From IMG/VR virus record IMGVR_UViG_3300021962_000091, positions 2,749 through 66,748 of that record: a DNA stretch of 64,000 nt. The stretch is one strand, 5' to 3'. Origin of the DNA: a virus. This document shows, piece by piece, positions 1-58,908 of this stretch. Under the pieces are notes generated by a model, which was not told where the DNA came from, did no database searches, and saw nothing but the letters and a program-made list of their open reading frames with translations. Numbering within the stretch: the first letter of the stretch is position 1; every line of letters begins with the position of its first letter. The position numbers and the translations under genes were made by a program.

Positions 1-327
1 GGCCCACTTCGCCCAGTATTCGTCCAAGAAATGTTGCAGCATATACCCACCTTCGGGCCAGGCCATCAAAAATCTATTGATGCCGGCCACAACCTCGGGG
101 GTCATATATTCCATGCCATCTTTCATTGGATTTGACGGAGAGGCCACTTGATCGGGAGTGTATTGTTTATCTTGACACACGGCAACCGCCCCATCGCACA
201 GGGTCAGCTCGGTTGTAGGTGTGAGTTTTTTCCACCCATACTTTTCACGTAAAATTTCTCCAATTACGTGTGAATCATATCCATCAGCTTGGGGTTTGGC
301 AACCCGTTTCCATTCAATTTGCATCAT
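1..327 (-). CDS. Partial gene (3' end lies beyond the left window edge); possible alpha-ketoglutarate-dependent HExxH-type peptide beta-hydroxylase
   Basis: Absent from the ORF track. Manual translation gives an open frame from ATG 327/324 to position 1: MMQIEWKRVAKPQADGYDSHVIGEILREKYGW...WPEGGYMLQHFLDEYWAKWA. GAGGTGG RBS at 328-334 and TATAAATA late promoter at 340-347. The family guess rests only on the recalled W-x-R-x-A-x-PQ-x-DGYD N-terminus and on context; the HExxH motif is not in the window. Confidence 0.6.
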   Translation of the reverse strand, partial: MMQIEWKRVAKPQADGYDSHVIGEILREKYGWKKLTPTTELTLCDGAVAVCQDKQYTPDQVASPSNPMKDGMEYMTPEVVAGINRFLMAWPEGGYMLQHFLDEYWAKWA

Positions 328-339
328 CCACCTCAATTA

Positions 340-347
340 TATTTATA
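340..347 (-). promoter_or_regulatory. T4-type late promoter (TATAAATA)
   Basis: Exact T4 gp55 consensus 13-16 nt upstream of the start of the edge gene; gp33 is encoded in the window. Confidence 0.7.
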
Positions 348-355
348 TGGCGATA

Positions 356-1888
356 TTACACAACTTCAGGTTTATCGATATGTGTTACGTCACTGTGCAG
401 GTCCGTGTGAGCCGTGTCCGTGTGTAAGTCGGTATGGGCCGTGTCGGTATGAAGATCGGTATGCGCCGTGTCGGTATGAAGATCGGTATGTGCCGTATCT
501 GTGTGTAAGTCAGTATGCGGTACATCGCTGTGCGTATTGACGAACGACACGTCGCTATGACTATTCACAAAGGACACGTCGGTGTGAGACACAACTTGCG
601 CCACGTTTGTATGCGAACTACTGAACGGAGCATCGTAATGCGCATTACTGTGCGAACTACTGAACGGAGCATCGTAATGCGCATTACTGTGCGAACTACT
701 GAACGGCGCATCATAGTGCAAGTTGCTATGCGAACTGCTGAACGGGGCGTCATAATGCGCACTACTGAACGGCGCATCATAGTGCAGGTTACTATGTGAG
801 TTAACGAACGGAATGTCCTCGTGGGGGTAATCCGTATACGCATTACCAAACGGTGTATCAGTATACGCATTACCAAACGGTGGACTGTTTGTATAACAGG
901 TGCCGTCAGTGTGGTCGGCATACTCTTGCCACGACGACGGAAAATTAACTAGCGTATCGGTATAACAGCCATCGTTATGGGGATACTCATACGCCGGACC
1001 TTCATCGTCATGAAAAACTTCATACGTTGCCGGATGATCGCTATAATCACCATACGCCACGTCATTGTGACTGTTTACGAACGCCACATCGTAGTGTGAG
1101 TCAATAAAGTAACTATCACTAAACGCCACATCGTAATGTGCATTGCTATGCGAACTACTAAACGGGGCGTCATAATGCGAACTACTGAACGGCGCATCAT
1201 AGTGCAGGTTACTGTGCGAACTGCTGAACGGCGCATCATAGTGCAGGTTACTGTGCGAACTGCTGAACGGCGCATCATAGTGCAAGTTGCTATGCGAACT
1301 ACTAAACGGGGCATCGTAATGGGCATCACTATGTGCAATGTCGGTATGGGCATCACTATGCGCGGTATCGGTGTGGGCATCAGTGTGGGCCGTGTCGGTA
1401 TGCGCATCCGAATGCGATACGTCGCTATGGCTATTCACAAAGGACACGTCATTATGGCTGTTGACGAACGACACGTCATTGTGGGTGTTGACAAAGGACA
1501 CGTCATTATGGCTGTTGACGAACGATACGTCATTGTGGGTATTCACAAATGCCGTATCATTGTGCGCCCAATGTTCGTGCTGTGCAGCTCCAATAAAATG
1601 CAACTGCCCATTAGCACTCGACGGCGCATAGGACGTTTCGATCCACATCGACCCCGCCAATGCACCCGCGCCGGCACGGTCGGCGACATACGGGCCATCC
1701 ACATATCGCTGAACCCCCGAGGCATCAATATAGTGAATGGTGTTTGCCGACATCCACATCGATCCGATTGCGGCACCTGCGGGAGATGCAACAGACGTGC
1801 CTAAAAATCGAAACTGCGTGTTACTGGCATTCATCCAATGTAGGTAAGATCCGCTAACCCACATCGAACCATTTGCTTCATTCGCCAT
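356..1888 (-). CDS. His-x-Asp/aromatic-x-(D/N/S) repeat protein, 510 aa (putative fibre-tip adhesin and radical SAM substrate), paralog 1
   Basis: N-terminal domain of about 110 aa with three GSMW pseudo-repeats, then tandem HNDVSFVNS, HTDTAHTDL and HYDAPFSSSHSNL repeats around a unique Cys/Tyr-containing centre; ends HIDKPEVV. Confidence 0.8.
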   Translation of the reverse strand: MANEANGSMWVSGSYLHWMNASNTQFRFLGTSVASPAGAAIGSMWMSANTIHYIDASGVQRYVDGPYVADRAGAGALAGSMWIETSYAPSSANGQLHFIGAAQHEHWAHNDTAFVNTHNDVSFVNSHNDVSFVNTHNDVSFVNSHNDVSFVNSHSDVSHSDAHTDTAHTDAHTDTAHSDAHTDIAHSDAHYDAPFSSSHSNLHYDAPFSSSHSNLHYDAPFSSSHSNLHYDAPFSSSHYDAPFSSSHSNAHYDVAFSDSYFIDSHYDVAFVNSHNDVAYGDYSDHPATYEVFHDDEGPAYEYPHNDGCYTDTLVNFPSSWQEYADHTDGTCYTNSPPFGNAYTDTPFGNAYTDYPHEDIPFVNSHSNLHYDAPFSSAHYDAPFSSSHSNLHYDAPFSSSHSNAHYDAPFSSSHSNAHYDAPFSSSHTNVAQVVSHTDVSFVNSHSDVSFVNTHSDVPHTDLHTDTAHTDLHTDTAHTDLHTDTAHTDLHTDTAHTDLHSDVTHIDKPEVV

Positions 1889-1911
1889 ATGTTTGTGTCC
1901 CGTTTAATGAA

Positions 1912-3072
1912 CTATGTCGCCCACAAGTTAGTGCCAACCGGCAGCACAAAACGGCCGTTCGTCGTATTTAGAGTCATTTTTGCATTGACCGTCGCGACAC
2001 CCGAGCACAATAATGTGCTGCTGAGTGTGGTCGCTCCCGTGAACGTTTTCGCACCGGCAAAACTCTGTGTGGTCGTATCCACCACACCATTGGCACTCGC
2101 ACTCGCCGACGACAACCGCGCCAACGGCACAGTTCCTGTACTCAGCGCCGAGGCATTGATACCCGTGGTCGAAATTGTGGTGAGAAGTGTTCCATAGTTT
2201 GTTCCGTCGCTCGTCACTTCCCAGTTATCGCCCATTTCATTCCAACGGAGGTAGGTGTTCGCCGACGATCCGCGATTGATTTCAATACCCGCATTTTCTG
2301 AAGGTGCGGTAATTGCAGGCAAATCCGCATTCAGCGCAATGATGTTATCACCGATTTGCAGATTGGTAGTATTGATGTAGGTCGTGGTTCCACTGACGGT
2401 CAAGCTTCCGGTAATCGTCACATCTTGGGCGAACGTTGCGTTGCCCGAGACACCCAGCGTACCCAGCGCGTTTGCCGCGCCGGTAATACTCACGGTGTTA
2501 CTGAATGATGTAGTATTCTGGAATGTCTTGTTCCCCACAAAGGTTTGGGTGTTCGTATCTACGACGCCGTTCGCACTCGTGTTTGCTGATGTTAATCGAT
2601 CAAGCGGTACTGTCCCTGTCGCCAAGTTACTGGCATTGGTATAGTAGGAACCCGGCTGACTGTTGAGGTTCGTCGCGTTGGTGGCCTGAGTGGCCGTCGT
2701 AGCACTATTGACGTTCAGTGCTCCTTCGCTCTTACCAAAGGCATAGGTGCTGTTGTTGGCTGTAATGAGCGTATAGGTGCCTGACAACCGACCATCGGGC
2801 ACGGTACCCGTGGCTAACGCCGAGGCATTCATTGTCGTCAGAGATACGCCGTTTCCCGAAAACACATTGGCGGTGACGGTGCCATTGGCAGTCACGGTCA
2901 CAATCGTCATGGTGCCGTTGATGGATACGTTCCCCGAACTGGTTGCCGGTGTCGCATTTTGTGCAACAAGAATGTATTCGCTTGTGTTACCAACGGCGGT
3001 AATAATTTGGTTAGTCGTATTGACCCACTGACCAAAGGTATTCGATAACTGAACTTGTGACGGTAAGGGCAT
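1912..3072 (-). CDS. Tail fibre-like virion protein, 386 aa
   Basis: N-terminal SNTFGQWVNTTN baseplate-anchor-like motif seen in T4-like fibre proteins; T/N/S/G-rich beta repeats; GSLTVSGTTTYINTTNLQIGDNII...AGIEINRG fibre motif. Confidence 0.75.
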   Translation of the reverse strand: MPLPSQVQLSNTFGQWVNTTNQIITAVGNTSEYILVAQNATPATSSGNVSINGTMTIVTVTANGTVTANVFSGNGVSLTTMNASALATGTVPDGRLSGTYTLITANNSTYAFGKSEGALNVNSATTATQATNATNLNSQPGSYYTNASNLATGTVPLDRLTSANTSANGVVDTNTQTFVGNKTFQNTTSFSNTVSITGAANALGTLGVSGNATFAQDVTITGSLTVSGTTTYINTTNLQIGDNIIALNADLPAITAPSENAGIEINRGSSANTYLRWNEMGDNWEVTSDGTNYGTLLTTISTTGINASALSTGTVPLARLSSASASANGVVDTTTQSFAGAKTFTGATTLSSTLLCSGVATVNAKMTLNTTNGRFVLPVGTNLWAT

Positions 3073-3110
3073 AGCGTCTCCAATAAAGAAGAATAATTGA
3101 TATTCCTCTC

Positions 3111-4196
3111 TTATTTAGTATTGTGACTCGTTATACCCCAGACCTCATCGAATAGTTGACGAATAAGACGGTGTGGTGCGGCAGCGCGCATTCGTGACTG
3201 TGCGTTTTTCGCAATCGTCACCGCCGCCGACTGATTATCCCGCAGTTCTCGATACCGTGCCAACAGCGCAGCGGCGGCCGCTTTGGGGTCGCGGGGGCGT
3301 CCCACATTATCCGTTCCCCCCGGTGCGTCCACGGCGGCATAGTGCAAGTCGGGAATCAACGGCACCATCAGAGGATGTCGCGGATAAGTAAACCCGATGG
3401 TCGCGCACCCTAATGTCCACAGCTCATGCTCTCGATTACACCACGGACCCCCCGCCAAAAATAAGTTCCAGCGATGCTGACTGGCGAGCTTCCACCAGTC
3501 CTCGCGGGCGAGCTTTTGATGGCGGTCCCACATAACCACTTCCTCGGGCGCAAGGTCATATAAGTACAACCCCACCTCACGCCAAGGGCGGCGTTCCCCT
3601 GACTCGTTAGTATAGGAATACGAATACGTCTCGGACGAACCAATAGTGCCGGCAAAAAACAACCGCAAGTCGGTCGCAGTTTCGGCGGGTAATGCCGGTA
3701 ATGCATCCGCATACGCCACGGTCTCATCGGGATACATGGTAAAATACCCAAAGGGTCGATATTTTTCTGGAGCTTTGGTATGCTGATACACCCAGTCGCG
3801 TTCATACATGGTCATATAGACCGCGAGACACTTGGGGCTGGCCGACCATTCACGACCAAACGTCGGATAGTCCTGCATGTCGATGAGACAAAACGTATCC
3901 GAGTCTACCTCTCGAATACAGACGACATCACTATTATACACCCCACGGGTGGTAATGCCATCAGAGATAAAAGATGAGATGTAATGTTCGTCGCGGTCGG
4001 GTGGCGCGATGGACTCTCCCGTAACTTCATATCCACAGGCATGAAGATATTGCGCCATCTCCGCGACGAGCACATAGTTATAGCGGCGATGCTGGTGCAA
4101 CAGTGTCGTCGGAAGTTGATACACATTTCCGTCTGGCAATAGAATATCACCAGGCGGAAACGCATGAACATCATACGAGGTAATATGAAATTTCAT
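3111..4196 (-). CDS. Putative glycosyltransferase (GT-B/exostosin-like C-terminus), 361 aa
   Basis: LFFAG and the C-terminal WNLFLAGGPWCNREHELWTLGCATI...PLIPDLHY segment resemble phage glycosyltransferase-like proteins. Confidence 0.45.
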   Translation of the reverse strand: MKFHITSYDVHAFPPGDILLPDGNVYQLPTTLLHQHRRYNYVLVAEMAQYLHACGYEVTGESIAPPDRDEHYISSFISDGITTRGVYNSDVVCIREVDSDTFCLIDMQDYPTFGREWSASPKCLAVYMTMYERDWVYQHTKAPEKYRPFGYFTMYPDETVAYADALPALPAETATDLRLFFAGTIGSSETYSYSYTNESGERRPWREVGLYLYDLAPEEVVMWDRHQKLAREDWWKLASQHRWNLFLAGGPWCNREHELWTLGCATIGFTYPRHPLMVPLIPDLHYAAVDAPGGTDNVGRPRDPKAAAAALLARYRELRDNQSAAVTIAKNAQSRMRAAAPHRLIRQLFDEVWGITSHNTK

Positions 4197-4197
4197 G

Positions 4198-5577
4198 TTA
4201 CCTCATATCAATAATACCTACAGCGACGTCACGGGCGGATTCGTTGCATATCACGGTGAGTTGATCGACAGAAAACCCTGCCATCTCTACCCATTCCTGT
4301 AGTGGATGTTTTCGCAGGTTGTCCCCATACACATAGACAAGATGAAGTTTATACGGGTCGAGTGCGGCCCGCGTGGCCGTAGCTTCGTCCTCACTCATCT
4401 CCGTCAGTCGAACGGGGCACGATACCACGACGGTGCTATCCGGCTGAAACCACTCGACCCACGTCAAATCTTGAATGCGCGCCGCACTCCATTTTCCGAC
4501 TAACCCCGACTGCGCCGACGTGATAGCGGCCTCATTAATATCCACTCCACCAATTTTAATGTCGGGTCGATTCAGCTTGAGTGTCTTGAGCAGACGACCG
4601 TTTCCGCATCCCAAATCAAGCACCGCACAATTTTCTGGGGCAAGAGTTTTCAACTCGTGTAGAATCGGCGCGTGTGACTCTAACATGCCTGTATAGGAAG
4701 AAAATCCGTTATGCTTCCAAATATCTTCCGTGGGTTTGGAGTAGACCCCCTTGCGATGAAAATATCGTTTATCGGTCGGTGGTGCCCAATCGGTGCGCGT
4801 CGAAATCTTGAGTGCTGGTCCGACAATTTCACCGATACCATTGACGCCACTCCATCGAACCGGCCACGACAGCACCGCATCAATAATTTTTGCTTCTTCA
4901 ACAAAGCCGTGCTTCTTGGCCGCCTCGCGCGTTTTTCGTCCAATTTCTACCGTGGCTTCACATTGGAATGAGCACGGCAAATGGGATACCCACCGAATCG
5001 CTTTCCACCGCCACAACATATTCGCTTCGATAGGACCATCCGCATTCCCCGTTTCGGCATACTGCTCCCATGTCGTATCCACCTGACCCGCGCCCCATGT
5101 GCGATGGAAAAATTCACGACAGCACTTAGGATAGCCCAAGACCTGACCGAGCACTTCGTTATTGTGGGCAATGTCTGGGGTATTCGAGACGAGCGAGAGC
5201 ACTTCGGGTCGCACAATCAGGACACGATACTCCCACGGCTTGGACGGATCAAATCCCGACGCTCCACTGGCAGACGAGTATCCATCAGACGACTGTCGGT
5301 TGACTTGCGTCACCGGCACAGCGGTAAGTCCATGAGATGCCGCACGGGCGCCCACCGTCATCAATTGGTCGGGTCGCACAAACGTATACATGCCGGGACG
5401 AATGCCCTCAATGACGGTCAGCCATTCAATCTCCTCACGCGCTTTTGAGACTTTATCAAATAACGGAAGCCAATATTCTCGCTCGGTCATTGAGGCCCAT
5501 GCCCATCGAGTCCACTCGGGCAACACGGGTCGGTTGGGGTCTAATACTGAAGTGGTAATTGCGGCCATATTATTCAT
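4198..5577 (-). CDS. DUF483-like Cys-containing domain fused to a class I SAM-dependent methyltransferase, 459 aa
   Basis: LGYPKCC and HLPCSFQC motifs in the N-terminal part; VLDLGCGNG SAM-binding motif I and GVDIN in the C-terminal part; start overlaps the upstream radical SAM stop. Confidence 0.65.
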   Translation of the reverse strand: MNNMAAITTSVLDPNRPVLPEWTRWAWASMTEREYWLPLFDKVSKAREEIEWLTVIEGIRPGMYTFVRPDQLMTVGARAASHGLTAVPVTQVNRQSSDGYSSASGASGFDPSKPWEYRVLIVRPEVLSLVSNTPDIAHNNEVLGQVLGYPKCCREFFHRTWGAGQVDTTWEQYAETGNADGPIEANMLWRWKAIRWVSHLPCSFQCEATVEIGRKTREAAKKHGFVEEAKIIDAVLSWPVRWSGVNGIGEIVGPALKISTRTDWAPPTDKRYFHRKGVYSKPTEDIWKHNGFSSYTGMLESHAPILHELKTLAPENCAVLDLGCGNGRLLKTLKLNRPDIKIGGVDINEAAITSAQSGLVGKWSAARIQDLTWVEWFQPDSTVVVSCPVRLTEMSEDEATATRAALDPYKLHLVYVYGDNLRKHPLQEWVEMAGFSVDQLTVICNESARDVAVGIIDMR

Positions 5578-6931
5578 CCTTTACAAGTGACATATCCGTG
5601 TGATCACCATGCGGCACCATATCCGTATGGTCGCCGTGACTATTTGCATGCTGACCGTATTGATGTGAATTCATATATGTATTAGCGTCCATTCCCGACT
5701 GCACGGCGCTGACCGCAGCGTTCAAATGAATACTCTTTCCCTGTGACCATACAGTATACATCAATTTTTCAATTTTTTCTCTGTCGGGGGATAATGTAAT
5801 CGGCAATTCTCCCACGCCGCGCAGTTTCTTTTCTTGAGACGCGAATTGTTCCTTGAGCACCGCACAATGCGTAGACCGTAATCTCCAGTCTCCTTCATAC
5901 CCGTCTTCAAATTCTTCACCCGTGCCGGGACAGTGGCCTGTGCACACCACAAAAAAGCGACATCCCTGACACCCCCCGTGTTCTTGGGGTGTCACATACA
6001 GCGACAACTGTCGAATGTGCGCGCGGGTGCTTGGAAACCCCTCACCAATTTGCCATCGAGCGTTATATCCAAACCCCTCTCCTGGCAACCAATCAATACC
6101 ATCCTTGACGGCTCGGGTGCAATTGCCCGGCGCACCGTCAGCACCAATACCCTGCACGGCGGCCGTGCTCCAGCCATCACACGCCGCATATACACACATT
6201 GCTTTGGACGCATCGCCGCGTAACAGTTGAATGGCTTCATCGAAGTTCAAAAACTTCATCTGGGTCAGTTCGCGACTTAGCTCAGCCAATTCTTTTATCG
6301 CCTGTTTTAATTCTGCATCTGGCAAATACCATTTACCCGCATGATGATCCATTTCAAGAAAATGGAAATTAATAAAACACACGCCTTTTTGGTCTAACTC
6401 ACGAATCCACTGCTTAAATCGAGGCAATACCGCCGGTGCGCAGTTTCCCGAGTGGAGCGTCACGATAAGTGTTGGTCCGTGTCCCCAATAGGCCCCAGGC
6501 TCCTGTTGAAGCGCACACACCATATCAATTGCTCGTAGCGTTTTTTCAGTGGCTTTACGTGTTGCTTCAATTGTGCCCGCCCATCGAGAATCATTCAGGT
6601 CATCGGGACCGTCCAAACTAATACCGACCTGTGTATGATACTTGCGAAACAAGTCAATATGTTTGGGAGTAATCAATGATCCGTTTGTCTGGAGTCCTGA
6701 TTGACCCCATTGGTCAAACGAGAGCTTTAATAGCTCTTCGAGGTCTTTCAGGTTCAACAATAACGGTTCGCCGCCAAACAGTTGCCAAAACCCCTTTGAC
6801 TGTGACGCCGCTTGAAGAACTTTTTCGCGTTGATATTTTGCCGTTGGAGTGACGCGACGACCCGCTTCTTCATAGCAGTAGTCGCAGCGTAAATTACAAG
6901 TAACGCCAACGGGTAAAACTTCAATTGACAT
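5570..6931 (-). CDS. Radical SAM/SPASM-domain peptide/protein maturase, 453 aa
   Basis: CNLRCDYC (CxxxCxxC), FGGEPLL, QTNG, GISLDG; C-terminal Cys set MCVYAAC...NC...CQGCRFFVVCTGHCP...C typical of SPASM; short tail with two HGDHTD copies. Confidence 0.9.
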   Translation of the reverse strand: MSIEVLPVGVTCNLRCDYCYEEAGRRVTPTAKYQREKVLQAASQSKGFWQLFGGEPLLLNLKDLEELLKLSFDQWGQSGLQTNGSLITPKHIDLFRKYHTQVGISLDGPDDLNDSRWAGTIEATRKATEKTLRAIDMVCALQQEPGAYWGHGPTLIVTLHSGNCAPAVLPRFKQWIRELDQKGVCFINFHFLEMDHHAGKWYLPDAELKQAIKELAELSRELTQMKFLNFDEAIQLLRGDASKAMCVYAACDGWSTAAVQGIGADGAPGNCTRAVKDGIDWLPGEGFGYNARWQIGEGFPSTRAHIRQLSLYVTPQEHGGCQGCRFFVVCTGHCPGTGEEFEDGYEGDWRLRSTHCAVLKEQFASQEKKLRGVGELPITLSPDREKIEKLMYTVWSQGKSIHLNAAVSAVQSGMDANTYMNSHQYGQHANSHGDHTDMVPHGDHTDMSLVKDE

Positions 6932-6937
6932 ACACTA

Positions 6938-8959
6938 TCACCATAATTTTTTTTCTGACCCATCAGGTAAAACGGCGCTTCGCGTGGGATCAGTATATGT
7001 TTTTTGTGTCACATCAGTATGGTCCCCGTGTTTATCGCCGTGCGGCCGATACTGATTAGATCCAGATGCTTGCAGAGTTTTATTCCATGCGGGCTGCAAA
7101 TTTTCCAAATGGGATGGGTGATCGTCAATATGATCCCCATGCTCAATAACATCGGTATGGTCACCGTGCGGCACCATATCAACGTGGTCGCCATGAGGAA
7201 CAGTGTCTCCCTCGACACACTCCACCGGCGCCGGCGGCAGAGGCGCAGGGGGTGACGATGGCCCTGTCCACAGGGTTTTTAATTTAGCGACCCACGCCCA
7301 TACAACCGCCATTCCACGACGAACAATAGCGATCACCCGTGCGACACGGGATGGGGATTGGTGCGTCAATATTACAGGAAGTGTCATATCTGTATGATCA
7401 CCATGCGGCACCACATCGGTGTGGTCGCCATGGGGAACCGTCACATCATCCGTGTGGTCGCCATGCGATGTTGTTGGTATCAACATGTCGGTATGATCGC
7501 CGTGTGGGATTATCGTTTCCACGGGTTCGACCACCGGAGCGACTCCCGTGTCTACATGGTCACCGTGGGGAACGTCGCGAATCGTCGTATCGACGTGATC
7601 ACCATGCGCATCGCCGTGTGGAATGTTTGCTACTTCGCGCGGCGGATTTGCATCATAATGATCCCCGTGAAGCTGCCCGCCCAAACCCGATGTAATATGT
7701 TCGTACTTCATTTTTCCCTCGACAATTTTAAGGGCCGTCGCTAAACTGATTTCTTTATTTTCCACCCATCCTCGATACATGAGGTGCTCGATCTCTTTTA
7801 ATTTTGGATGATGTGATAGGGGCAGTTCACCGACATCAATAAGACGACGCTCGGCTTCTTCTAACATATCCTTCCATGTTTGACAGTAGGTCGATCGTAA
7901 CCGCCAATCCCCATAGGTGCCGTGCGATTCTTCACCCGTGCCGGGGCAATGACCCGTGCACATAGACCAAAACCGACAATCCTTACATCCGCCGTGCTCC
8001 TGTGGTGTCACATAGAGAGAAAGCTGTCGTTCATGATAGCGCCGCGAGTCTTTGAACGTTCCAATTTGCCAGGGCGCATACACCCCCTGATTCTCTGGGC
8101 CTTCGGCGGGAATCCAATCGATTCCGTCCTTATTCGTGCGGGTGCAATGCGACGGGGATCCATCCCCCTCTAATCCTTGCACCGCCGACGTGTTCCACGG
8201 ATCACACGAATGCCAGACGCACATGACATCATCCGCCCCACGAAGTCGTTTGACATATTCGGCAAAGTTGGTGATTTGCGTGGTTTCAAATTCGGTGCTC
8301 AACTCCCACAAATCCAACATGACTTCTTTCATTCGGTCGTGGGGCACATACCATTCACTATCTTTCGTCGCTTCGTGATCCAGTTCCATTGTATGAAAAT
8401 TGATACTACGAATACCTCGACGATCGCAGTCCACAAGCCATGCCCGCATCTTTGGCCAGGCTTCGACTGAGCAATTTTTCGCATGAAGCGTAATAATGAG
8501 GCTGGGAATTAATACCGGATTATTTTGTTCTTTGGCCGCCGTCAGCAGCATATCAATCGCGGCGTGCGTTCGTGCCGTCGCTTTTCGTGTGGCGTCCAAT
8601 GTTCCTGCCCAGCGGGAGTCATTAAGTTCGTCGGGACCATCCAAACTAATACCCACGTTTGTTCTATATTTGGTAAATAATTCAATGTGGGCGGGAGTGA
8701 TTAATGTGCCGTTGGTCTGGACACCGGAACTTCCCCATTTATCGTGGGCGAGTTTGAGTAACTCTTCTAATTCTGGTAGAGGAATAATTAATGCTTCGCC
8801 GCCAAATAAGGACCAGCGTCCCGTCACATGCTCTAACTGGGCCAAGACTTTCGTGCGATCATATTTGTGCACGGGCTGAATGTCTCGAATTGGCTGCTCG
8901 TAGCAATATGCACATCGTAAATTGCACGTCACTCCCACGGGTCGAACTTCAATACTCAT
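6938..8959 (-). CDS. Radical SAM/SPASM maturase with a long C-terminal (P)HGDHxD repeat tail, 673 aa
   Basis: CNLRCAYC, FGGEA, QTNG, GISLDG, SPASM CKDCRFWSMCTGHCP; clear paralog of 5570..6931; about 13 HGD motifs in the last ~240 aa. Confidence 0.9.
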   Translation of the reverse strand: MSIEVRPVGVTCNLRCAYCYEQPIRDIQPVHKYDRTKVLAQLEHVTGRWSLFGGEALIIPLPELEELLKLAHDKWGSSGVQTNGTLITPAHIELFTKYRTNVGISLDGPDELNDSRWAGTLDATRKATARTHAAIDMLLTAAKEQNNPVLIPSLIITLHAKNCSVEAWPKMRAWLVDCDRRGIRSINFHTMELDHEATKDSEWYVPHDRMKEVMLDLWELSTEFETTQITNFAEYVKRLRGADDVMCVWHSCDPWNTSAVQGLEGDGSPSHCTRTNKDGIDWIPAEGPENQGVYAPWQIGTFKDSRRYHERQLSLYVTPQEHGGCKDCRFWSMCTGHCPGTGEESHGTYGDWRLRSTYCQTWKDMLEEAERRLIDVGELPLSHHPKLKEIEHLMYRGWVENKEISLATALKIVEGKMKYEHITSGLGGQLHGDHYDANPPREVANIPHGDAHGDHVDTTIRDVPHGDHVDTGVAPVVEPVETIIPHGDHTDMLIPTTSHGDHTDDVTVPHGDHTDVVPHGDHTDMTLPVILTHQSPSRVARVIAIVRRGMAVVWAWVAKLKTLWTGPSSPPAPLPPAPVECVEGDTVPHGDHVDMVPHGDHTDVIEHGDHIDDHPSHLENLQPAWNKTLQASGSNQYRPHGDKHGDHTDVTQKTYTDPTRSAVLPDGSEKKLW

Positions 8960-8976
8960 CGTATATCCTCTGTCAT

Positions 8977-8984
8977 TATTTAGT
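8977..8984 (-). promoter_or_regulatory. Late-promoter-like motif (ACTAAATA) upstream of the radical SAM genes
   Basis: The same xxTAAATA motif precedes structural genes elsewhere (3112, 11874, 20311, 25493, 29937, 32947, 34170); followed by a GAGGA RBS. Confidence 0.6.
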
Positions 8985-8989
8985 ATGTG

Positions 8990-10198
8990 TTATATCGACT
9001 GTGGTTTGTCAATATGCGTGATGTCGCTATGGAGGTCCGTGTGTGCCGTATCGGTATGCGCATCACTGTGCGCCGTGTCGGTATGGAGGTCGGTATGGGC
9101 CGTGTCGGTATGGAGGTCGGTATGGGCCGTGTCGGTATGGAGGTCGGTATGGGCCGTGTCGGTATGGAGGTCGGTATGGGCCGTATCGGTATGGAGGTCG
9201 GTATGGGCCGTATCGGTGTGCGCATCACTATGCGCGGTATCTGTGTGCAGGTCAGTATGCGAATTCACAAACTCCTGATCGGAATATTCGTCGGCGTGCG
9301 ATACGTCGCTATGACTATCAATGAACGGTGTATCAGTATACGCATTACTAAATGGTGGACTGTTTGTATAACAGGTGCCGTCGGTGTGGGCGACATACAA
9401 CTCAAATCCACCGTACTGCTCCGGAAACACAACTGTCTCATCGGTATGACAAAAATCGTTATGGGGATACTCACACCACGGACCTTCTACATCGTTATGA
9501 CAAACTTCATACGTTGCCGGATGATCGCTATAATCACCATACGGCACATCAGTGTGATCGTTATAATATTCATCCGTGTGTAAGTCGGTATGCGATACGT
9601 CGCTATGCGTATTGTTGAACGACACATCGGTGTGGTCGTCAAGATGTGTGTTCACGAAGGACACGTCATTATGCGTGTTGACAAACGATACATCATTATG
9701 CGTGTTGACAAACGATACATCATTATGCGTGTTGACAAACGACACGTCGCTATGGCTGTTGACAAACGATACATCATTATGCGTGTTGACAAACGACACG
9801 TCGCTATGGCTGTTGACGAACGATACATCATTATGCGTATTGACAAACGACACGTCGCTATGACTGCTCACAAATGCCGTATCGTCGTGCACCCAATTTT
9901 CATATTGTGTTTCGCCTAAAAAGTGTAGCTGCCCGTTAGCACTCGACGGCGCATAGGCAGTCTCAATCCACATCGATCCGGCTTTTCCCGTTTGTGGCGC
10001 AACGGGAGCACCGTTTGCGCGACGTTCGACTCCCGAGGCGTCAATATAATGCACATTATTCGCCTCAATCCAAATGCTTCCGGCTTTGGCACCTGCGGGA
10101 CTTCCGAGAGACGTGCCATCATAACGGAATCGCGTATTGGCAGAATTTCTCCAATAGAGGTAAATCCCCTCAATCCACATCGACCCGTTAGCTGCCAT
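8990..10198 (-). CDS. His-x-Asp/aromatic-x-(D/N/S) repeat protein, 402 aa, paralog 2
   Basis: Same architecture as 356..1888: three GS(M/I)W repeats, about 9-10 H(N/S)DVSFVN(T/S) copies, shared centre YGDYSDHPATYEV...HTDGTCYTNSPPF, about 8 HTDTAHTDL copies, ends HIDKPQSI. Confidence 0.8.
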   Translation of the reverse strand: MAANGSMWIEGIYLYWRNSANTRFRYDGTSLGSPAGAKAGSIWIEANNVHYIDASGVERRANGAPVAPQTGKAGSMWIETAYAPSSANGQLHFLGETQYENWVHDDTAFVSSHSDVSFVNTHNDVSFVNSHSDVSFVNTHNDVSFVNSHSDVSFVNTHNDVSFVNTHNDVSFVNTHNDVSFVNTHLDDHTDVSFNNTHSDVSHTDLHTDEYYNDHTDVPYGDYSDHPATYEVCHNDVEGPWCEYPHNDFCHTDETVVFPEQYGGFELYVAHTDGTCYTNSPPFSNAYTDTPFIDSHSDVSHADEYSDQEFVNSHTDLHTDTAHSDAHTDTAHTDLHTDTAHTDLHTDTAHTDLHTDTAHTDLHTDTAHTDLHTDTAHSDAHTDTAHTDLHSDITHIDKPQSI

Positions 10199-10201
10199 GT
10201 T

Positions 10202-11599
10202 TTATACACTCCACTTATCTGCGCCCACCGGCAATACCAGACGACCATACGTGCTATTGTTCAAGTCCACGGTGTTTGCGACGTATAGTATACCACTAAC
10301 GTTGACAGCACCGCTGAACGTCGCCGCTCCAGCGGAGGACAGGGTCATGCGCGTCGTGTTGTTTGTCAGAAACGCCAGGTCGCCCGTAGCTCCCGTGATC
10401 CCAATTTGCATCCCGGCTGTTGTGGCTGACAAAATGTTTGTAAAGTCGGTGCCGGTGAACGAGAGTTCATTAGTGCCCGATGCGTTGACGATACTGACTG
10501 GACCCGTGAATGTTTTGGCCCCCGCAAAACTTTGCGTCGTGGTAGTCACATACCCATTGGCCGTGGTATTCGCTTCGGGAAACGATGTTCCAATCACGCG
10601 CCAACGAGTAATCGTTGTATCATAATACAAATGTGCGGCGCCCTGTCGCGGCAACAACGCGTTGGTGTTGGCCGCACAATAAAAGGCATTTGTTGTTGCC
10701 CCAGTATTCGCGTGCTCTAAAAATACATCCGTATCACCAACATTGACCAGAATCAACGATCGCGGCTGTGCCGTATTCGCCTGTTCCACGCCGGCGATAG
10801 ACTTGGAGACCGCACTAGAAAACCGATAGACCGAGGTGTTGGCCTGAACCGGCAGCGGAGCGGCGGTGCCGGCACCCGTTAATGCCGCATCGGTTTCAAT
10901 AAACGTGCTCTTCCATTCAATCGGACCCCCAAGCACCATGCCCGCATTGAAGGTCGTTGTGCCGGTGATGGCCAAAGTATTACTGAGCGTGGTGGCACCG
11001 GTGACGCCGAGAGTATTACTGAGCGTGGCCGCGCCCGTGACCCCGAGGGTATTACTGAGCGTGGTGGCGCCTGTCACGGCTAATGTATTACTAAACGTGG
11101 TGTTGCCCGTGACGGCAAGAGTATTACTAAACGTGGTGTTCCCCGTGACGGCAAGAGTATTACTAAACGTAGTATTACCCGTGACGACAATGGTATTACT
11201 AAACGTCGCACCAAGTGTGACCGCCAAATTTCCTGTGAGGGTTGTTTTTCCGTTAATAACCGTATTGGGAGCAATCGTTAAATCGGTTCCTGATATAACC
11301 GTATTAGTCGCGGCGATGCTGACGTTAGACGCAATGATAGCTGCGGTATCACTCACCCCATTTGTGGTTAATTTAAACACTGGTGTGGTACAGCCCGTGG
11401 TCAATCCCCCGAGCACCACGTTGCCGTTTGCCACTAACGTGGCGGTCGTCACGGTTCCAGTGACCGATACATTTCCTTGTGCGGTATTATTGACCAAGAC
11501 ATACGCACTGGTATTGGACACATGGCTAATTAAATTATTCGTCGCGTCAAACCATGTATTAAACGTATCGGTTGGTTGAATTATGGGCGGTAAAGACAT
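10202..11599 (-). CDS. Tail fibre-like virion protein, 465 aa
   Basis: N-terminal TDTFNTWFDATN anchor motif; 12-aa NTLAVTGNTTFS repeats; shares TTTQSFAGAKTFTG and the C-terminal GRxVLPVGxxxW with 1912..3072. Confidence 0.75.
   Translation of the reverse strand: MSLPPIIQPTDTFNTWFDATNNLISHVSNTSAYVLVNNTAQGNVSVTGTVTTATLVANGNVVLGGLTTGCTTPVFKLTTNGVSDTAAIIASNVSIAATNTVISGTDLTIAPNTVINGKTTLTGNLAVTLGATFSNTIVVTGNTTFSNTLAVTGNTTFSNTLAVTGNTTFSNTLAVTGATTLSNTLGVTGAATLSNTLGVTGATTLSNTLAITGTTTFNAGMVLGGPIEWKSTFIETDAALTGAGTAAPLPVQANTSVYRFSSAVSKSIAGVEQANTAQPRSLILVNVGDTDVFLEHANTGATTNAFYCAANTNALLPRQGAAHLYYDTTITRWRVIGTSFPEANTTANGYVTTTTQSFAGAKTFTGPVSIVNASGTNELSFTGTDFTNILSATTAGMQIGITGATGDLAFLTNNTTRMTLSSAGAATFSGAVNVSGILYVANTVDLNNSTYGRLVLPVGADKWSV
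10975..11210 (-). repeat. 36-nt coding tandem repeat (NTLxVTGxTTxS), about 6-7 copies
   Basis: Recurring gtattact(a/g)a(a/g)cgt units at 36-nt spacing within the fibre gene. Confidence 0.8.
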
Positions 11600-11601
11600 G
11601 G

Positions 11602-11868
11602 TTAATCTCGCTTAGAAAGAGGGTCCGAATATTTAGCCGTCAATGCCGAAACATGCTGTACCAATTCCAGTAATAAACTTTCGCACCGATCTAACCGACC
11701 ATGAATTATCTCAAACCGCGCATCCACATCCCGTTGTTGTTGCTTTAATTGTTTGAGCGTGGTGCGCGACCGACGATGTCGCTCTAGATCATCAAGATTT
11801 GTAGGCAATAATGCTCGCGTTTCCGTATCACGCACTACCCGAGGGTCGTCAGTTTGTACTAAAGCCAT
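11602..11868 (-). CDS. Small conserved T4-like virion-region protein with coiled coil, 88 aa
   Basis: VRDTETRALL motif plus a coiled coil, directly after the DUF4815-type gene as in cyanophage-like myoviruses. Confidence 0.65.
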   Translation of the reverse strand: MALVQTDDPRVVRDTETRALLPTNLDDLERHRRSRTTLKQLKQQQRDVDARFEIIHGRLDRCESLLLELVQHVSALTAKYSDPLSKRD

Positions 11869-38800: not shown

Positions 38801-38814
38801 GTGCGCTGACCTAA
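35806..38814 (+). CDS. Tape-measure/hub (gp29-like) protein with a C-terminal M15-like peptidase, 1002 aa
   Basis: Follows gp26-gp51; helical and G/A-rich regions; K.IPGLGWLIG hydrophobic segment; VNSAKR...Q..LW...PGRSRHERGLAIDI...DPVHF peptidase motif. Confidence 0.7.
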   Translation: MAKGLPKFSEDDILKALQERKRTVDATRALRGGMVATLEIKSQFDDSRMDVIRDMSQKEADRIIGVVRNEEMKLAGAMKSAATNQNQPLIQLLNFYRDSLQRIYYQSTQQKTAVIGESEIEQTYLPQIEKLIQAIKQDKILKEYKVTTTVLQLAEKIKQELVNRTKLKTKLKDSAKNKISGFLGKDSAFSKSNLVGLALSAFLNRKQSKNSYAIAAQNNQQNLNTQQAQTRAETDAVEFEQQKQDAAKKERDAIAEKARRQRAKKGKGATPEATTTKVSDTNMGVSPILTADGTTQPAVTPGGSGLVGADGQPLSSLPTAPELSAPVSSSLDGSGSEIVKILSQHTSLLGKIFGVNSQMLKLQQDKMAKDAAAAEESGLETQGGGKERTGLLPTATKEEEEQGGGGFMGLAMNLLSSRFPMLRGLRGAGGLLRGGARLGGGLLRGGARLGGRLAGLGLGAAAGATATAVASSSADDIAKTATKAIGTETAEAATKTLGKKAAETGAKKGISASIKGLIKKKVPSTIGKIVGKGIPGLGWLIGGGFAISRLVKGDVVGAGLELGASAGSLLTSIPLTIVSLTRDVYTESYGTPPEIDSEAAPRLGEIKTGVTEAVDEELEKLGLKEKKKDDAVIQKSEQDLESAKAETPPPTSGETTPTATEAPPAPSSAPPTAGPAGGPAPTTTDAPAPSAPPAPKPSGFFGRLVKGATKALQYATPIGLTYTATKKMMSDKLFGGGQSGGGGATGSFAGNPSEVLEFGGESGQLQNFQGLHPAIQNKVLAAGQEYLQKTKKKLKVNSAKRDPAKQQQLWDESVKAGRPGRGPSGMAIARPGRSRHERGLAIDIQNYRDPIAVAALNRQGLFQGVPGDPVHFQLDGNPSLDQPVSPAEGATDTGASQSTGAATQAPPNVAETGGGNAGSAPPAPTTASAGGDTTATGRAVIAGSIAAPAAAPAGGGGGNVTNIMQGGTTLAGGGGGGSASTPIPAPIDREPTIRRILDGALT

Positions 38815-40802: not shown

Positions 40803-40835
40803 AAAAAATGCCGGGTTGGGTGCAGCGGAGCCGGC
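40803..40835 (-). terminator. Probable terminator at the tmRNA 3' end
   Basis: gccgg...ccggc stem followed by a T6 run on the minus strand. Confidence 0.55.
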
Positions 40836-41100
40836 GCGCTGTTGTGAACACTTCTGTTGCCAGGTGGCTCACGGGAACCCCTGATACCCGTAGGTATCAA
40901 GTAGCAGCACTAGGCTGCCATAGCGAACTGATATTGGTCAGTTCTGGGTGTCTCTGTTTAACGACAGCGACTTGTCGAGTGCCTCCATCGCATTCCAACT
41001 CCGCCGAATCGATTCTACGTCACCCCCGTAACTGGATTGGTGGAGGTGTCGGGCTCTGCCCCCGAGTCTTCTTGCGGTCAAACACGACTTCATCGAACAC
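40810..41100 (-). ncRNA. ssrA: Circularly permuted (two-piece) tmRNA; tag peptide (A)DQYQFAMAA
   Basis: Minus-strand order: T-arm TCGGG-GGCAGAG-CCCGA and CACCTCC-ACCA (CCA ends at 41038), a 10-nt spacer, then GGGGGTG (41027-41021). These form a 7-bp acceptor stem with the G3.U70 Ala determinant. Tag ORF GAC CAA TAT CAG TTC GCT ATG GCA GCC TAG at 40939-40910. Outer ends are approximate. Confidence 0.9.
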
Positions 41101-57338: not shown

Positions 57339-57343
57339 CTTAC

Positions 57344-58907: not shown

Positions 58908-58908
58908 G

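What the first reader, a model, noticed from the sequence alone, without database searches (positions are those of the whole stretch)
1..11599. Phage-encoded RiPP-like radical SAM system that appears to modify tail-associated proteins
SEEN: the cassette lies directly downstream of the baseplate genes. Its order is fibre A (10202-11599), repeat protein A (8990-10198), rSAM/SPASM 1, rSAM/SPASM 2, DUF483-like/methyltransferase, glycosyltransferase-like, fibre B (1912-3072), repeat protein B (356-1888), then a further enzyme-like gene. The repeat proteins consist largely of aromatic-X-(Asp/Asn/Ser) tripeptides (HxD, HxN, FVN, FSS, YxD, YxN), and both enzymes carry HGDHxD in their own tails. KNOWN: SPASM-type triceptide maturases (XyeB, FxsB, GrrM and His-targeting relatives) cross-link an aromatic residue to the beta-carbon of residue +2 in such Omega-X-X motifs (for example FxN, FxS), normally on short precursor peptides. 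INFERENCE: the substrates here are 400-500 aa virion proteins with dozens of sites each, which would give a poly-cyclophane, rigid and possibly protease-resistant or metal-binding fibre tip. No precursor-sized peptide, transporter or leader peptidase is visible in the cassette. I know of no described case of such cross-linking in a phage structural protein.
Basis: partly seen in the sequence, partly recalled or inferred. Interest (0 to 1): 0.95.

Follow-up and report, generated by a model that had tools for sequence, protein, structure and literature searches.

The report
Phage fibre-tip repeat proteins with radical-SAM maturases
A T4-like phage encodes two tail-fibre tip proteins built from dozens of His/Phe-x-Asp/Asn triplets together with a dedicated set of peptide-modifying enzymes, so it probably modifies a part of its own particle chemically, which has not been shown by experiment for any virus.

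Summary
All nine genes lie where stated, on the minus strand between the baseplate and neck genes. In repeat protein A, 40 of 43 His sit in H-x-D/N/S triplets; in B, 53 of 59.

The link between enzymes and repeats is strongly supported. Of 49 viral loci with a full-length relative of these radical SAM enzymes, 45 carry a DUF483-like partner and 45 a His-x-Asp array. Most generic radical-SAM control loci carry neither. Bacterial loci carry short HxD peptides instead.

- The edge gene is an aKG-HExxH oxygenase. Its only significant structural matches are ChlH and SjiH.
- A complex model places one repeat protein's three-repeat N-domain on the three C-terminal tails of a fibre trimer. The score is 0.84 against a best control of 0.00.
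- The DUF483-like fold has no clear solved relative.

The chemistry (aromatic-to-C-beta cyclophanes) is inferred, not shown. The enzymes pass no curated family cut-off, and their best full-length solved relative is anSME. Also, 11 of 23 bacterial rSAM-DUF483 loci show no array nearby.

This scan noted the same cassette earlier in at least 12 other genomes. The one paper found that mentions the module guessed DNA modification.

The parts
10202..11599 (-). Fibre A (465 aa), Thr/Asn/Gly-rich shaft. The C-terminus carries the conserved LVLPVG-x-D-K-W tail.
   Evidence: ORF. Weak PHROG tail-fibre hits (phrog_4549, E 2.4e-4). The C-terminal motif is shared with 25 of 44 ORFs directly upstream of cap-domain proteins, against 50 of 12578 ORFs overall. 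In the complex model, residues 108-120 of the 120-aa C-terminal piece form the interface.
8990..10198 (-). Repeat protein A (402 aa). It has an N-terminal cap domain (about residues 1-105, three GS-x-W-I/V-E pseudo-repeats), then FVN/HxD nonamer arrays, a non-repetitive centre, and an HTDLHTDTA array.
   Evidence: 40 of 43 His in H-x-[DNS]. Cap-domain alignment A5 shows G-S-x-W conserved three times. Complex model.
6938..8959 (-). rSAM1 (673 aa). It has a CX3CX2C core, eight further conserved Cys including CX2CX5CX3C, and a long C-terminal tail with 11 HGD motifs.
   Evidence: Pfam Radical_SAM 47.5 bits. Invariant Cys in alignment A1. Tail motifs. Orthologous to the first rSAM of loci L090 and L091 (61-69% identity).
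5570..6931 (-). rSAM2 (453 aa), a paralogue about 54% identical to rSAM1, with two HGDHTD motifs at its C-terminus.
   Evidence: The family profile aligns to anSME 4k36 over its full length (E 1.8e-20).
4198..5577 (-). DUF483-like domain (about residues 1-300; conserved CC...PC..C cysteines) fused to a SAM methyltransferase domain (about residues 305-459).
   Evidence: Pfam. Alignments A2 and A3 show C152, C153, P201 and C206 nearly invariant. AF2 model pLDDT 90. No clear solved fold relative.
3111..4196 (-). 361-aa protein of unknown family; glycosyltransferase-like only as a lead.
   Evidence: No HMM hit. Atlas look-alikes partly carry Glyco_trans_1_2/GT90. Among my loci it is found only in the window's near-identical contig L008.
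1912..3072 (-). Fibre B (386 aa) with the same C-terminal FVLPVG-x-N-L-W tail.
356..1888 (-). Repeat protein B (510 aa). It has a cap domain, then arrays of three block types on either side of a centre shared with repeat A.
   Evidence: 53 of 59 His in H-x-[DNS]; 90 aromatic-x-[DNS] triplets.
1..336 (-). N-terminal 112 aa of a 371-aa aKG-HExxH-type oxygenase-like protein. The gene continues upstream of the window, at G000:C1:1969-3084.
   Evidence: Full ORF. NCBIfam TIGR04267 gives 27.6 bits (cut-off 40), and homologues in related loci pass. HExxH plus N, S, D, R, P and Y are invariant in A6. Foldseek finds only SjiH (22ob) and the ChlBHExxH domain (8s5f) at E<=0.001.
11602..11868 (-). 88-aa protein directly upstream of fibre A, conserved in the same place in related phages.
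   Evidence: phrog_473 'virion structural protein', E 0.001. phmmer hits directly upstream of the fibre gene in L090 and L091, and just before the ORF upstream of the cap protein in L093.

Best explanation
This is a duplicated tail-fibre tip module with its own maturation enzymes.

Step 1, assembly (modelled). Each fibre, presumably a trimer, ends in a conserved LV(I/L)PVG-x-D/N-x-W tail. One copy of the repeat protein encoded next to it caps the three tails with a pseudo-threefold N-terminal domain made of three GS-x-W-I/V-E repeats. This is a 3:1 adaptor, as gp38 sits on gp37 in T2/S16-type phages.

Step 2, modification. Genomic linkage supports the arrays as substrate; the reaction itself is inferred. 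The 300-400-residue arrays of aromatic-x-Asp/Asn/Ser triplets are the substrate of the two SPASM-type radical SAM enzymes, which work with the DUF483-like partner. The most likely reaction is H-abstraction at C-beta of residue 3 and coupling to the His/Phe/Tyr ring of residue 1, giving three-residue cyclophanes as in triceptides.

Step 3, tailoring (inferred from family). The aKG-HExxH oxygenase would hydroxylate the beta-carbon of His/Asp. The fused methyltransferase would methylate. The 361-aa protein may glycosylate.

Step 4, result (speculative). The product is a heavily cross-linked, rigid distal fibre tip used in host recognition.

My odds: arrays are the enzymes' substrate 0.75; repeat proteins sit on fibre tips 0.75; the chemistry is aromatic-to-C-beta cyclophane 0.4.
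For: Linkage:
- Of 49 viral loci with a full-length family rSAM, 45 have a DUF483-like gene, 45 have at least 6 H-x-[DNS] in a 60-aa window on the same strand within 5 kb, and 35 have the cap domain.
- The few positives among the 31 viral and 57 genomic generic-rSAM loci (DUF483-like in 3 and 5; arrays in 7 and 4) are mostly split, truncated or divergent family members. L150, L163 and L165, each with 6 motifs, were not examined.
- Bacterial loci carry 60-220-aa HxD peptides next to the pair, for example in L012, L013, L015, L016, L019 and L020. Two archaeal loci (L036, L037) carry a cap/HxD protein with rSAM and DUF483; L037 also has the fibre-tail ORF directly upstream.
- Thermus phage Cumys has the order fibre-tail protein, HxD protein, rSAM, DUF483.

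Aromatic residue rather than metal ligand:
- L105 has the same cap domain, rSAM and DUF483, but its array holds 37 FxN and only 6 HxD.

Motif:
- Of 3067 His in 90 array ORFs, position +2 is D in 79% and N in 14%. Position +1 is variable, and the commonest spacing is 5.

Enzymes:
- CX3CX2C plus eight invariant Cys including CX2CX5CX3C.
- The best NCBIfam hits are anSME and cyclophane/ether maturases.
- Fusions exist: rSAM-DUF483 (L014, L016, L017, L019, L020) and rSAM with methyltransferases, 2OG oxygenases and an NCBI-named aKG-HExxH hydroxylase.

HExxH protein:
- It hits TIGR04267, and its fold matches only SjiH and ChlH at E<=0.001.
- ChlH hydroxylates His and Asp on a pre-installed cyclophane (PMC12636437, passages read).

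Fibre cap:
- 25 of 44 ORFs upstream of cap proteins end in the P-[VILF]-G..[WFY] motif, against 50 of 12578 ORFs overall.
- The complex model scored ipSAE 0.84 against a best of 0.00 for 3 controls. The mark was reached by 58 of 80 solved complexes and 2 of 110 mismatched pairs. The runs agree in at least 98% of contacts, and the partner's pLDDT is at least 84. Each fibre tail contacts one GS-x-W repeat. The calibration holds only roughly for this multi-copy job with my own alignments.
Against: - No chemistry is shown.
- The rSAMs score 27-64 bits against curated cut-offs of 310-450 for XyeB, GrrM, FxsB, YhhB, AmcB, DynA and anSME. Most of these hits cover only the N-terminal ~140 residues.
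- The only full-length solved relative by sequence is anSME, an oxidising rather than cross-linking enzyme. The triceptide synthase ChlB matches only profile positions 9-115.
- The Pfam SPASM model did not hit at E<=0.01.
- H-x-D is also a classical metal-binding pattern.
- 11 of 23 bacterial rSAM-DUF483 loci, and viral L115, show no array within 4-5 kb on either strand. The pair can therefore occur without an adjacent array.
- The cap domain also occurs without arrays: 36 of the 120 top representatives of 150 aa or more. I could not examine their neighbourhoods.
- The window's own HExxH copy is below the NCBIfam cut-off (27.6 against 40).
- Loci were not de-replicated. L121/L122 and L125/L126 carry identical repeat proteins, and those of L108/L132 are near-identical.
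- No proteomic evidence that the repeat proteins are in virions was seen.
Confidence: 0.55

Rival explanations
1. The arrays are modified by the rSAMs, but by other chemistry. Candidates are anSME-like oxidation at C-beta, epimerisation at C-alpha, or another cross-link. The mature arrays might then act mainly as metal-binding His/Asp ladders.
For: - The best full-length solved relative is anSME (E 1.8e-20, profile positions 2-367).
- No triceptide family cut-off is reached.
- Arrays are 13% Asp and 12% His.
- Some rSAM relatives are fused to PF04016; its description as a putative heavy-metal chelation domain is from my recall.
- Bacterial HxD peptides carry what looks to me like a twin-arginine signal (my reading of L013 and L015; no tool was used).
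- Recalled from the field: SPASM-type epimerases exist. Search listing only: PMC13012085 on EpeE.
Against: - Arrays made almost wholly of Phe-x-Asn keep the same enzymes (L105), and Phe cannot bind a metal.
- The constraint is on the aromatic residue and position +2, exactly the triceptide register.
- The accompanying HExxH oxygenase family is known from cyclophane pathways.
Confidence: 0.28
2. The rSAM and DUF483 pair modifies DNA or a nucleotide, as suggested for the Thermus phage 'rSAM module'. On this view the HxD proteins are unrelated neighbours.
For: PMC11437467 (passages read) reports rSAM/DUF483 homologues in cyanobacterial genomes beside deazapurine DNA-modification genes. 11 of 23 bacterial loci have no array nearby.
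Against: - Adjacency to arrays holds in 45 of 49 viral loci.
- The enzymes carry HGDHxD tails that resemble the arrays: 42 of 49 viral family rSAMs have H-x-D in their last 60 residues.
- The accessory enzymes are peptide hydroxylase-type.
- Nucleotide and cofactor rSAM families score lower than protein maturases.
- I did not examine the cyanobacterial context myself.
Confidence: 0.05
3. The arrays function unmodified, as a fibre-tip adhesin or metal-dependent binder. The enzymes act on their own HGDHxD tails or on a host target.
For: The HGD(H)xD tail is nearly invariant in the 18-sequence alignment (H432, G433, D434). It is expanded to 11 motifs in rSAM1.
Against: Many bacterial family rSAMs lack the tail but still sit beside HxD peptides, for example L012, L015, L016, L019 and L020. 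The linkage statistics are as above.
Confidence: 0.1

Closest known systems
Triceptide (three-residue cyclophane) pathways: rSAM/SPASM synthases such as HaaB (HAA), YhhB (HNR), HtkB (HTK) and ChlB, with the aKG-HExxH hydroxylase ChlH (PMC11499958 and PMC12636437, passages read)
   Same: - rSAM core starting at about residue 10 with no N-terminal recognition domain (alignments).
- SPASM-type cysteines.
- Substrates with repeated aromatic-X-X triplets, including His-first motifs.
- An aKG-HExxH oxygenase partner with the ChlH/SjiH fold; fused rSAM-HExxH forms exist.
   Different: - The substrates are 400-500-aa fibre-tip proteins with 63 and 90 triplets, not short leader/core peptides.
- No leader peptidase or exporter is present.
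- Position 3 is mostly Asp or Asn.
- There is an obligatory DUF483-like partner of unknown fold.
- The enzymes reach no curated family cut-off, and the product is unknown.
'rSAM module' of Thermus phages Cumys and phiMa (Viruses 2024, PMC11437467)
   Same: The same three genes in the same order after the tail genes: HxD protein, rSAM at 36-40% identity over 98% of rSAM2, and a DUF483 protein.
   Different: That paper names the third gene only as unknown and proposes DNA modification. It mentions no repeats, no fibre cap and no peptide chemistry (passages read). The window has two rSAMs, two fibre/repeat pairs, a fused methyltransferase and an HExxH oxygenase.
Anaerobic sulfatase-maturating enzyme (anSME, PDB 4k36)
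   Same: It is the best solved relative over the full length (E 1.8e-20). Recalled: it abstracts a C-beta hydrogen from a residue of a full-size protein substrate.
   Different: TIGR03942 scores 58.6-63.6 bits against a cut-off of 349. No gene of the cassette was identified as a sulfatase. Recalled: anSME makes formylglycine at one site.
gp37/gp38 fibre-adhesin arrangement of T2/S16-type phages (recalled; no paper read here)
   Same: The gene order is fibre then tip protein. A single tip protein is modelled on a trimeric fibre end.
   Different: No sequence or fold relation was tested. The tip protein here carries aromatic-x-D/N arrays rather than glycine-rich motifs.

Membership tests
Radical SAM superfamily (PF04055) | CX3CX2C cluster motif and a Pfam score above the gathering cut-off | tested here: met
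   47.5 and 56.4 bits against a cut-off of 29.5. C12, C16 and C19 are invariant in 18 sequences.
SPASM subfamily of radical SAM enzymes | C-terminal auxiliary-cluster cysteines including CX2CX5CX3C | tested here: met
   C246, C251, C271, C321, C324, C330, C334 and C356 are invariant. Full-length alignment to anSME. The Pfam SPASM model itself was not among the hits at E<=0.01.
Named triceptide/cyclophane synthase families (XyeB, GrrM/OscB, FxsB, YhhB, AmcB) | Score above the curated NCBIfam cut-off | tested here: not met
   Best scores are 27-60 bits against cut-offs of 310-450. Matches are limited to about the first 140-160 residues.
Triceptide systems | Adjacent substrate with aromatic-X-X motifs | tested here: met
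   63 and 90 aromatic-x-[DNS] triplets in the two repeat proteins. Arrays lie next to the rSAM in 45 of 49 viral loci.
Triceptide systems | Aromatic-ring to C-beta cross-link in the product (-2 Da per motif) | not testable with these tools
   Needs co-expression followed by MS and NMR.
anSME (TIGR03942) | Score above the curated cut-off | tested here: not met
   63.6 and 58.6 bits against a cut-off of 349.45.
aKG-HExxH-type peptide beta-hydroxylase (TIGR04267) | HMM score above the cut-off of 40 bits | tested here: not met
   The window's copy scores 27.6 bits (E 2.5e-6). 6 of the 9 proteins scanned (the window's copy and 8 homologues from related loci) pass, at 45.8-78.6 bits.
aKG-HExxH-type peptide beta-hydroxylase | HExxH motif and the fold of ChlH/SjiH | tested here: met
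   H163, E164 and H167 are invariant. AF2 model pLDDT 81. Foldseek gives SjiH 22ob at E 1.6e-5 and 8s5f at E 2.2e-5 to 9.9e-5, prob 1.00, with about 235 aligned columns. No other hit has E<=0.001.
DUF483 (PF04467) | Pfam score above the gathering cut-off | tested here: inconclusive
   24.8 bits against a cut-off of 25 (E 2.3e-5). The phiLo homologue scores 20.4 bits and the Cumys homologue has no hit.
RiPP in the strict sense | Short precursor with a leader and a released core peptide; a leader peptidase or exporter | tested here: not met
   No gene in 1-11868 matched a peptidase or transporter family in Pfam, NCBIfam or PHROGs; I did not look for short ORFs in the window. The HExxH gene is oxygenase-type. 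The substrates are 402 and 510 aa.

The most novel reading that the evidence does not exclude
Phages, and some archaeal viruses, build the distal tip of a tail fibre from a single protein carrying dozens of enzymatically installed three-residue cyclophane rings that are further hydroxylated or methylated. A pseudo-threefold cap holds it on the fibre trimer. This would be the first radical-SAM cross-linked structural protein of a virus particle. It would also show that triceptide-type chemistry works on whole proteins. Bacterial HxD peptides next to the same enzyme pair would be the small-peptide branch of the same, so far undescribed, family.
Probability: 0.35. Interest if true: 0.9.

Novelty: new variant of a known kind. 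Interest (0 to 1): 0.8.

Why it matters
If the arrays are cross-linked, this extends peptide-natural-product chemistry to a virion structural protein with tens of sites per chain. It would be a new way for phages to make a stable receptor-binding tip.

It would also assign a role to DUF483 and to a large uncharacterised branch of rSAM/SPASM enzymes. That branch has more than 120 clusters at E below 1e-114. The cap domain has 581 representative clusters.

The idea is directly testable, because the same module occurs in culturable Thermus phages. The heavily modified, modular arrays could also interest protein engineers.

Tried and rejected
- One rSAM per motif type. Rejected as a requirement: FxN-rich arrays also occur in single-rSAM loci (L099, L105, L107). 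The two paralogues do form two orthologous groups across the window, L090 and L091.

- A function for the DUF483-like domain from its fold. Foldseek against the PDB gave no match at E<=0.001. The wide VIA search gave as best 2guk (unknown function; Z 7.7, rmsd 3.1, 100 residues aligned) and NleE (Z 3.8); both are below a convincing level. I therefore assign no function.

- Glycosyltransferase identity of the 361-aa protein. There is no HMM hit even at E<=1 apart from a chance-level T6SS-SciN hit. Only the atlas lead remains.

- N-terminal parts of long HxD-array proteins from other loci. Of 8 proteins scanned against PHROGs, 7 of which were also scanned against Pfam, only L102 and L113 showed a Laminin_G_3 lectin domain, and L102 a 'virion structural protein' PHROG. 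The other six had nothing.

P0157 gave no locus, and P0130 gave one locus at a contig edge. This is unresolved.

- Near-identical DNA among isolated phages: none.

- Isolated phages with the rSAM or the cap domain: only Thermus phages phiMa, Cumys and phiLo.

- Literature searches. 'DUF483' gave one relevant paper, the Thermus one. 'triceptide' with 'bacteriophage' gave 0 papers. 'radical SAM' + 'tail fiber' + 'phage' + 'SPASM' gave 3 papers, none relevant by title or abstract. 'radical SAM', 'virion', 'post-translational', 'tail fiber' and 'crosslink' gave 11 papers, none relevant by title or abstract. Supplementary files were not opened. The supplement of PMC11437467 (its Figure 3B loci) and the cyclophane-synthase network of PMC11499958 may bear on membership.

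- Paper PMC12186529 (Asp to aminomalonate): only the abstract was read, and it is unrelated.

- Script one search stopped with an error after printing its lists of loci. I made the family counts (7 of 23 and 7 of 49) by hand from those lists and the groups.

Full report
WHAT IS THERE

The window is bases 2749-66748 of a 66.7-kb IMG/VR viral contig. PHROG hits to baseplate wedge, hub and tube-cap proteins at 18.5-33 kb, to a gp32-type ssDNA-binding protein and to a DNA end protector mark it as a T4-like myovirus.

On the minus strand, after a 2207-aa protein of unknown function (phrog_358) and an 88-aa protein, come in order:
- fibre A (10202-11599)
- repeat protein A (8990-10198)
- rSAM1 (6938-8959)
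- rSAM2 (5570-6931)
- a DUF483-like/methyltransferase fusion (4198-5577)
- a 361-aa protein (3111-4196)
- fibre B (1912-3072)
- repeat protein B (356-1888)
- a gene that runs off the window (1-336)

On the contig that last gene is 371 aa. It is followed by a head-tail adaptor (phrog_211) and a T4 neck protein. The cassette therefore lies inside the structural module.

THE REPEATS ARE REAL

Repeat A has 40 of 43 His in H-x-[DNS]; 1000 shuffles gave a mean of 12.7 and a maximum of 23. Repeat B has 53 of 59 (shuffle mean 19.4, maximum 30). Counting all aromatic residues, there are 63 and 90 triplets. The fibres themselves have almost none. rSAM1 carries 11 HGD motifs in its tail and rSAM2 carries 2.

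THE ENZYMES

Both rSAMs pass Pfam Radical_SAM. An alignment of 18 family members shows invariant CX3CX2C, eight further invariant cysteines including CX2CX5CX3C, and a nearly invariant C-terminal H-G-D.

Against NCBIfam, the best hits are anSME and the cyclophane- or ether-forming maturases AmcB, DynA and YhhB, at 55-64 bits. All lie far below the curated cut-offs of 340-450 bits, and most cover only the first ~140 residues. Cofactor and nucleotide families (NirJ, AhbC/D, MoaA) score lower, at about 30-39 bits.

A family profile searched against PDB sequences aligns over its full length only to anSME (E 1.8e-20). The triceptide synthase ChlB matches profile positions 9-115 only. The family is therefore a distinct branch of protein/peptide-modifying SPASM enzymes and not a member of any named one.

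THE LINK BETWEEN ENZYMES AND REPEATS

The family is large: more than 120 clusters at E below 1e-114. I fetched 80 loci from genomes and 80 from viral contigs with the family alignment. About half of them match only the generic rSAM core, and I used those as controls.

I called ORFs in all loci and searched them with my own HMMs for the rSAM, the DUF483-like protein, the repeat proteins' N-terminal domain and the fibre C-terminus.

Viral loci with a full-length family rSAM (n = 49):
- 45 have a DUF483-like gene.
- 35 have the N-terminal domain.
- 45 have at least 6 H-x-[DNS] in some 60-aa window on the same strand within 5 kb.
- The four negatives are two loci cut at the contig edge (L097, L101), one whose array is made of Phe-x-Asn (L105), and L115.

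Control loci:
- Among 31 viral controls, 3 have a DUF483-like gene and 7 have arrays. Four of those seven (L123, L138, L141, L166) are family members with a split or divergent rSAM. The other three (L150, L163, L165) each have 6 motifs, and I did not examine them.
- Among 57 genomic controls, 5 have a DUF483-like gene and 4 have arrays. All four array-positive loci (L027, L034, L036, L037) are family members whose rSAM is split, divergent or cut off by a contig end.

Genomic family loci (n = 23):
- 22 have the DUF483-like gene.
- 12 have a same-strand array, and 2 more have one on the other strand.
- 11 have none on the same strand within 5 kb; two of them, L021 and L028, are the loci with an array on the other strand. 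A separate look at small ORFs in 13 array-poor genomic loci found none on either strand within 4-5 kb in 11 of them.

Loci were not de-replicated. L121/L122 and L125/L126 carry identical repeat proteins, and L108/L132 carry near-identical ones.

In bacteria the arrays are short proteins of about 60-220 aa beside the enzyme pair, for example in L012, L013, L015, L016, L019 and L020. In five loci the rSAM and DUF483 are fused. Two archaeal loci carry the same set of cap/HxD protein, rSAM and DUF483: a Halorubellus genome, which also has the fibre-tail ORF, and a nanohaloarchaeal MAG.

Among 50,697 isolated phage records, only Thermus phages phiMa, Cumys and phiLo carry the rSAM (36-40% identity, 98% coverage). 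In Cumys the order is tail collar fibre, a 97-aa protein ending in the fibre tail motif, a 343-aa HxD protein with the same N-terminal domain, the rSAM with an HGD tail, then DUF483.

WHAT THE MOTIF IS

Over 90 array ORFs from these loci there are 3067 His. Position +2 is Asp in 79% and Asn in 14%. Position +1 is variable (Thr 23%, Ser 21%, Gly 12%). The commonest spacing between motifs is 5 residues. These ORFs were chosen by motif density and not curated.

L105 is telling. It has the same cap domain, rSAM and DUF483, but its array is almost pure Pro-Phe-x-Asn-Thr pentamers, with 37 FxN and 6 HxD. The shared feature is therefore an aromatic ring with Asp/Asn two residues on. That is the register of triceptide motifs (aromatic1-X2-X3, ring to C-beta of X3; PMC11499958, passages read) rather than a metal-ligand pair.

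THE EDGE GENE IS AN OXYGENASE OF THE CYCLOPHANE-PATHWAY TYPE

The 371-aa protein has an HExxH motif. Its relatives occur in 7 of 23 genomic and 7 of 49 viral family loci, and are fused to rSAM-DUF483 in Nannocystis.

Its only hit in NCBIfam is TIGR04267, 'aKG-HExxH-type peptide beta-hydroxylase'. The window's copy scores 27.6 bits, below the cut-off of 40. Six of the nine proteins scanned (the window's copy and eight homologues) pass.

An AlphaFold2 model (pLDDT 81) finds only two things in the PDB at E<=0.001: SjiH, and the HExxH domain of ChlBHExxH, 'a novel alpha-ketoglutarate dependent oxygenase' (E 1.6e-5 to 9.9e-5, about 235 columns). According to passages of PMC12636437, ChlH adds beta-hydroxyl groups to Asp and His of a precursor that already carries a cyclophane, and rSAM-fused HExxH enzymes form the largest cluster of that family.

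This evidence is independent of the rSAM comparison and points to the same kind of pathway. Further long fusions of the rSAM carry methyltransferase, 2OG-oxygenase, PhyH and PF04016 domains (35 proteins at E<=1e-30).

THE REPEAT PROTEINS AS FIBRE CAPS

The N-terminal ~100 residues of the repeat proteins contain three G-S-x-W-(I/V)-E pseudo-repeats.

All 44 distinct proteins with this domain have an ORF ending 0-150 bp upstream. In 25 of them that ORF ends in P-[VILF]-G-x2-3-[WFY], against 50 of 12578 ORFs overall. P and G are invariant in the 23-sequence alignment.

I sent three copies of the last 120 residues of fibre A and one copy of residues 1-105 of repeat A, each with its alignment, to complex prediction. 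The results:
- ipSAE was 0.84, the median of three runs.
- The best of three controls scored 0.00.
- The mark was reached by 58 of 80 solved complexes and 2 of 110 mismatched pairs in the calibration.
- The runs agree in at least 98% of contacts, and the partner's pLDDT is at least 84.
- Each fibre tail (residues 108-120) contacts one of the three pseudo-repeats (around residues 5-9, 40-43 and 74-78).

The tool warns that its calibration holds only roughly for a multi-copy job with my own alignments, and that a model is not a measurement. This supports, but does not show, a 3:1 cap like gp38 on gp37 (that comparison is recalled).

The cap domain has 581 representative clusters at E<=0.001. Of the top 150:
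- 76 carry HxD arrays.
- 8 carry aromatic arrays with few His.
- 36 carry other C-terminal domains.
- 30 are shorter than 150 aa.

The cap is thus a general adaptor, and the arrays are its commonest payload.

THE PARTNER PROTEIN

The DUF483-like domain folds confidently (pLDDT 90). Its nearly invariant residues include C152, C153, P201 and C206, which suggests a metal site. No clear solved relative was found: Foldseek gave nothing at E<=0.001, and the best wide-search match was 2guk at Z 7.7, a protein of unknown function. Its role is open. It could recognise the substrate or carry out a second reaction.

HOW IT MOST LIKELY WORKS

- Shown by sequence and linkage: the parts list and the association of arrays, rSAM and DUF483.
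- Modelled: the cap on the fibre.
- Inferred from family: radical H-abstraction at C-beta of residue 3 and coupling to the ring of residue 1, followed by hydroxylation and methylation.
- Speculative: a rigid tip used for host recognition; the role of the enzymes' own HGDHxD tails (decoy, self-substrate or tether); and the pairing of FVN nonamers with HTD nonamers across the shared centre.

The two rSAMs fall into two orthologous groups shared with L090 and L091. Identity is 61-69% and 59-79% within groups and 52-57% between them. The duplication is therefore old and probably reflects a division of labour. It is not simply His against Phe motifs, since single-rSAM loci also handle FxN.

WHAT SPEAKS AGAINST

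- No product is known.
- The closest full-length solved relative oxidises rather than cross-links.
- H-x-D could bind metal.
- About half of the bacterial loci lack a nearby array.
- The only paper that mentions the module proposes DNA modification, citing cyanobacterial homologues beside deazapurine genes (PMC11437467). I did not check that context.

NOVELTY

My searches of the held library found no paper linking triceptides or rSAM cross-links with phage particles. This scan has reported the same cassette earlier on at least 12 other genomes, each time as 'partly supported'. I tested the first two here, and they hold as far as computation can tell.

Noticed in passing
window 56712-62161: A first-reader note describes an NDP-heptose pathway with a glycosyltransferase here. 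I saw only that 58909-59907 hits phrog_2170 (glycosyltransferase, E 7.8e-44). A phage-made sugar donor could feed the possible glycosyltransferase of the cassette. This is untested.
   Followed up: partly
window 40810-41100: A first-reader note proposes a permuted two-piece tmRNA here. ARAGORN on the whole window listed only two tRNA-Ser genes (62489-62572 and 63492-63576) and no tmRNA.
   Followed up: partly
window 35806-38814: A 1002-aa Ala/Gly-rich protein with an endolysin-type domain near residues 765-907 (phrog_2649, E 2.6e-10) and long low-complexity stretches. It looks like a tape-measure or injected lysin-type protein. The region shows a strong AT skew.
   Followed up: no
L025:6841-9975 (Fulvivirga genome locus): The 1044-aa protein directly upstream of the family rSAM ends in a short run of His-x-Lys repeats instead of His-x-Asp. 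This recalls the HTK motif of HtkB and suggests that position 3 varies within the family.
   Followed up: no
L013:12784-13206 and L015:12219-12500 (bacterial loci): The short HxD proteins next to rSAM/DUF483 begin with what looks like a twin-arginine export signal (my reading; no signal predictor was run). This would fit modification in the cytoplasm before export.
   Followed up: no
repeat proteins of many loci, last 14 residues: 39 of 46 cap-domain proteins end in a shared [HY]-x-[DN]-x-P motif just before the stop. It may be a terminal cap of the array; its role is unknown.
   Followed up: partly
window 11884-18507: A 2207-aa protein between the baseplate genes and the cassette matches phrog_358 (1091 bits, unknown function) and phrog_877. 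It is a very large conserved virion-module protein without an assigned role.
   Followed up: no
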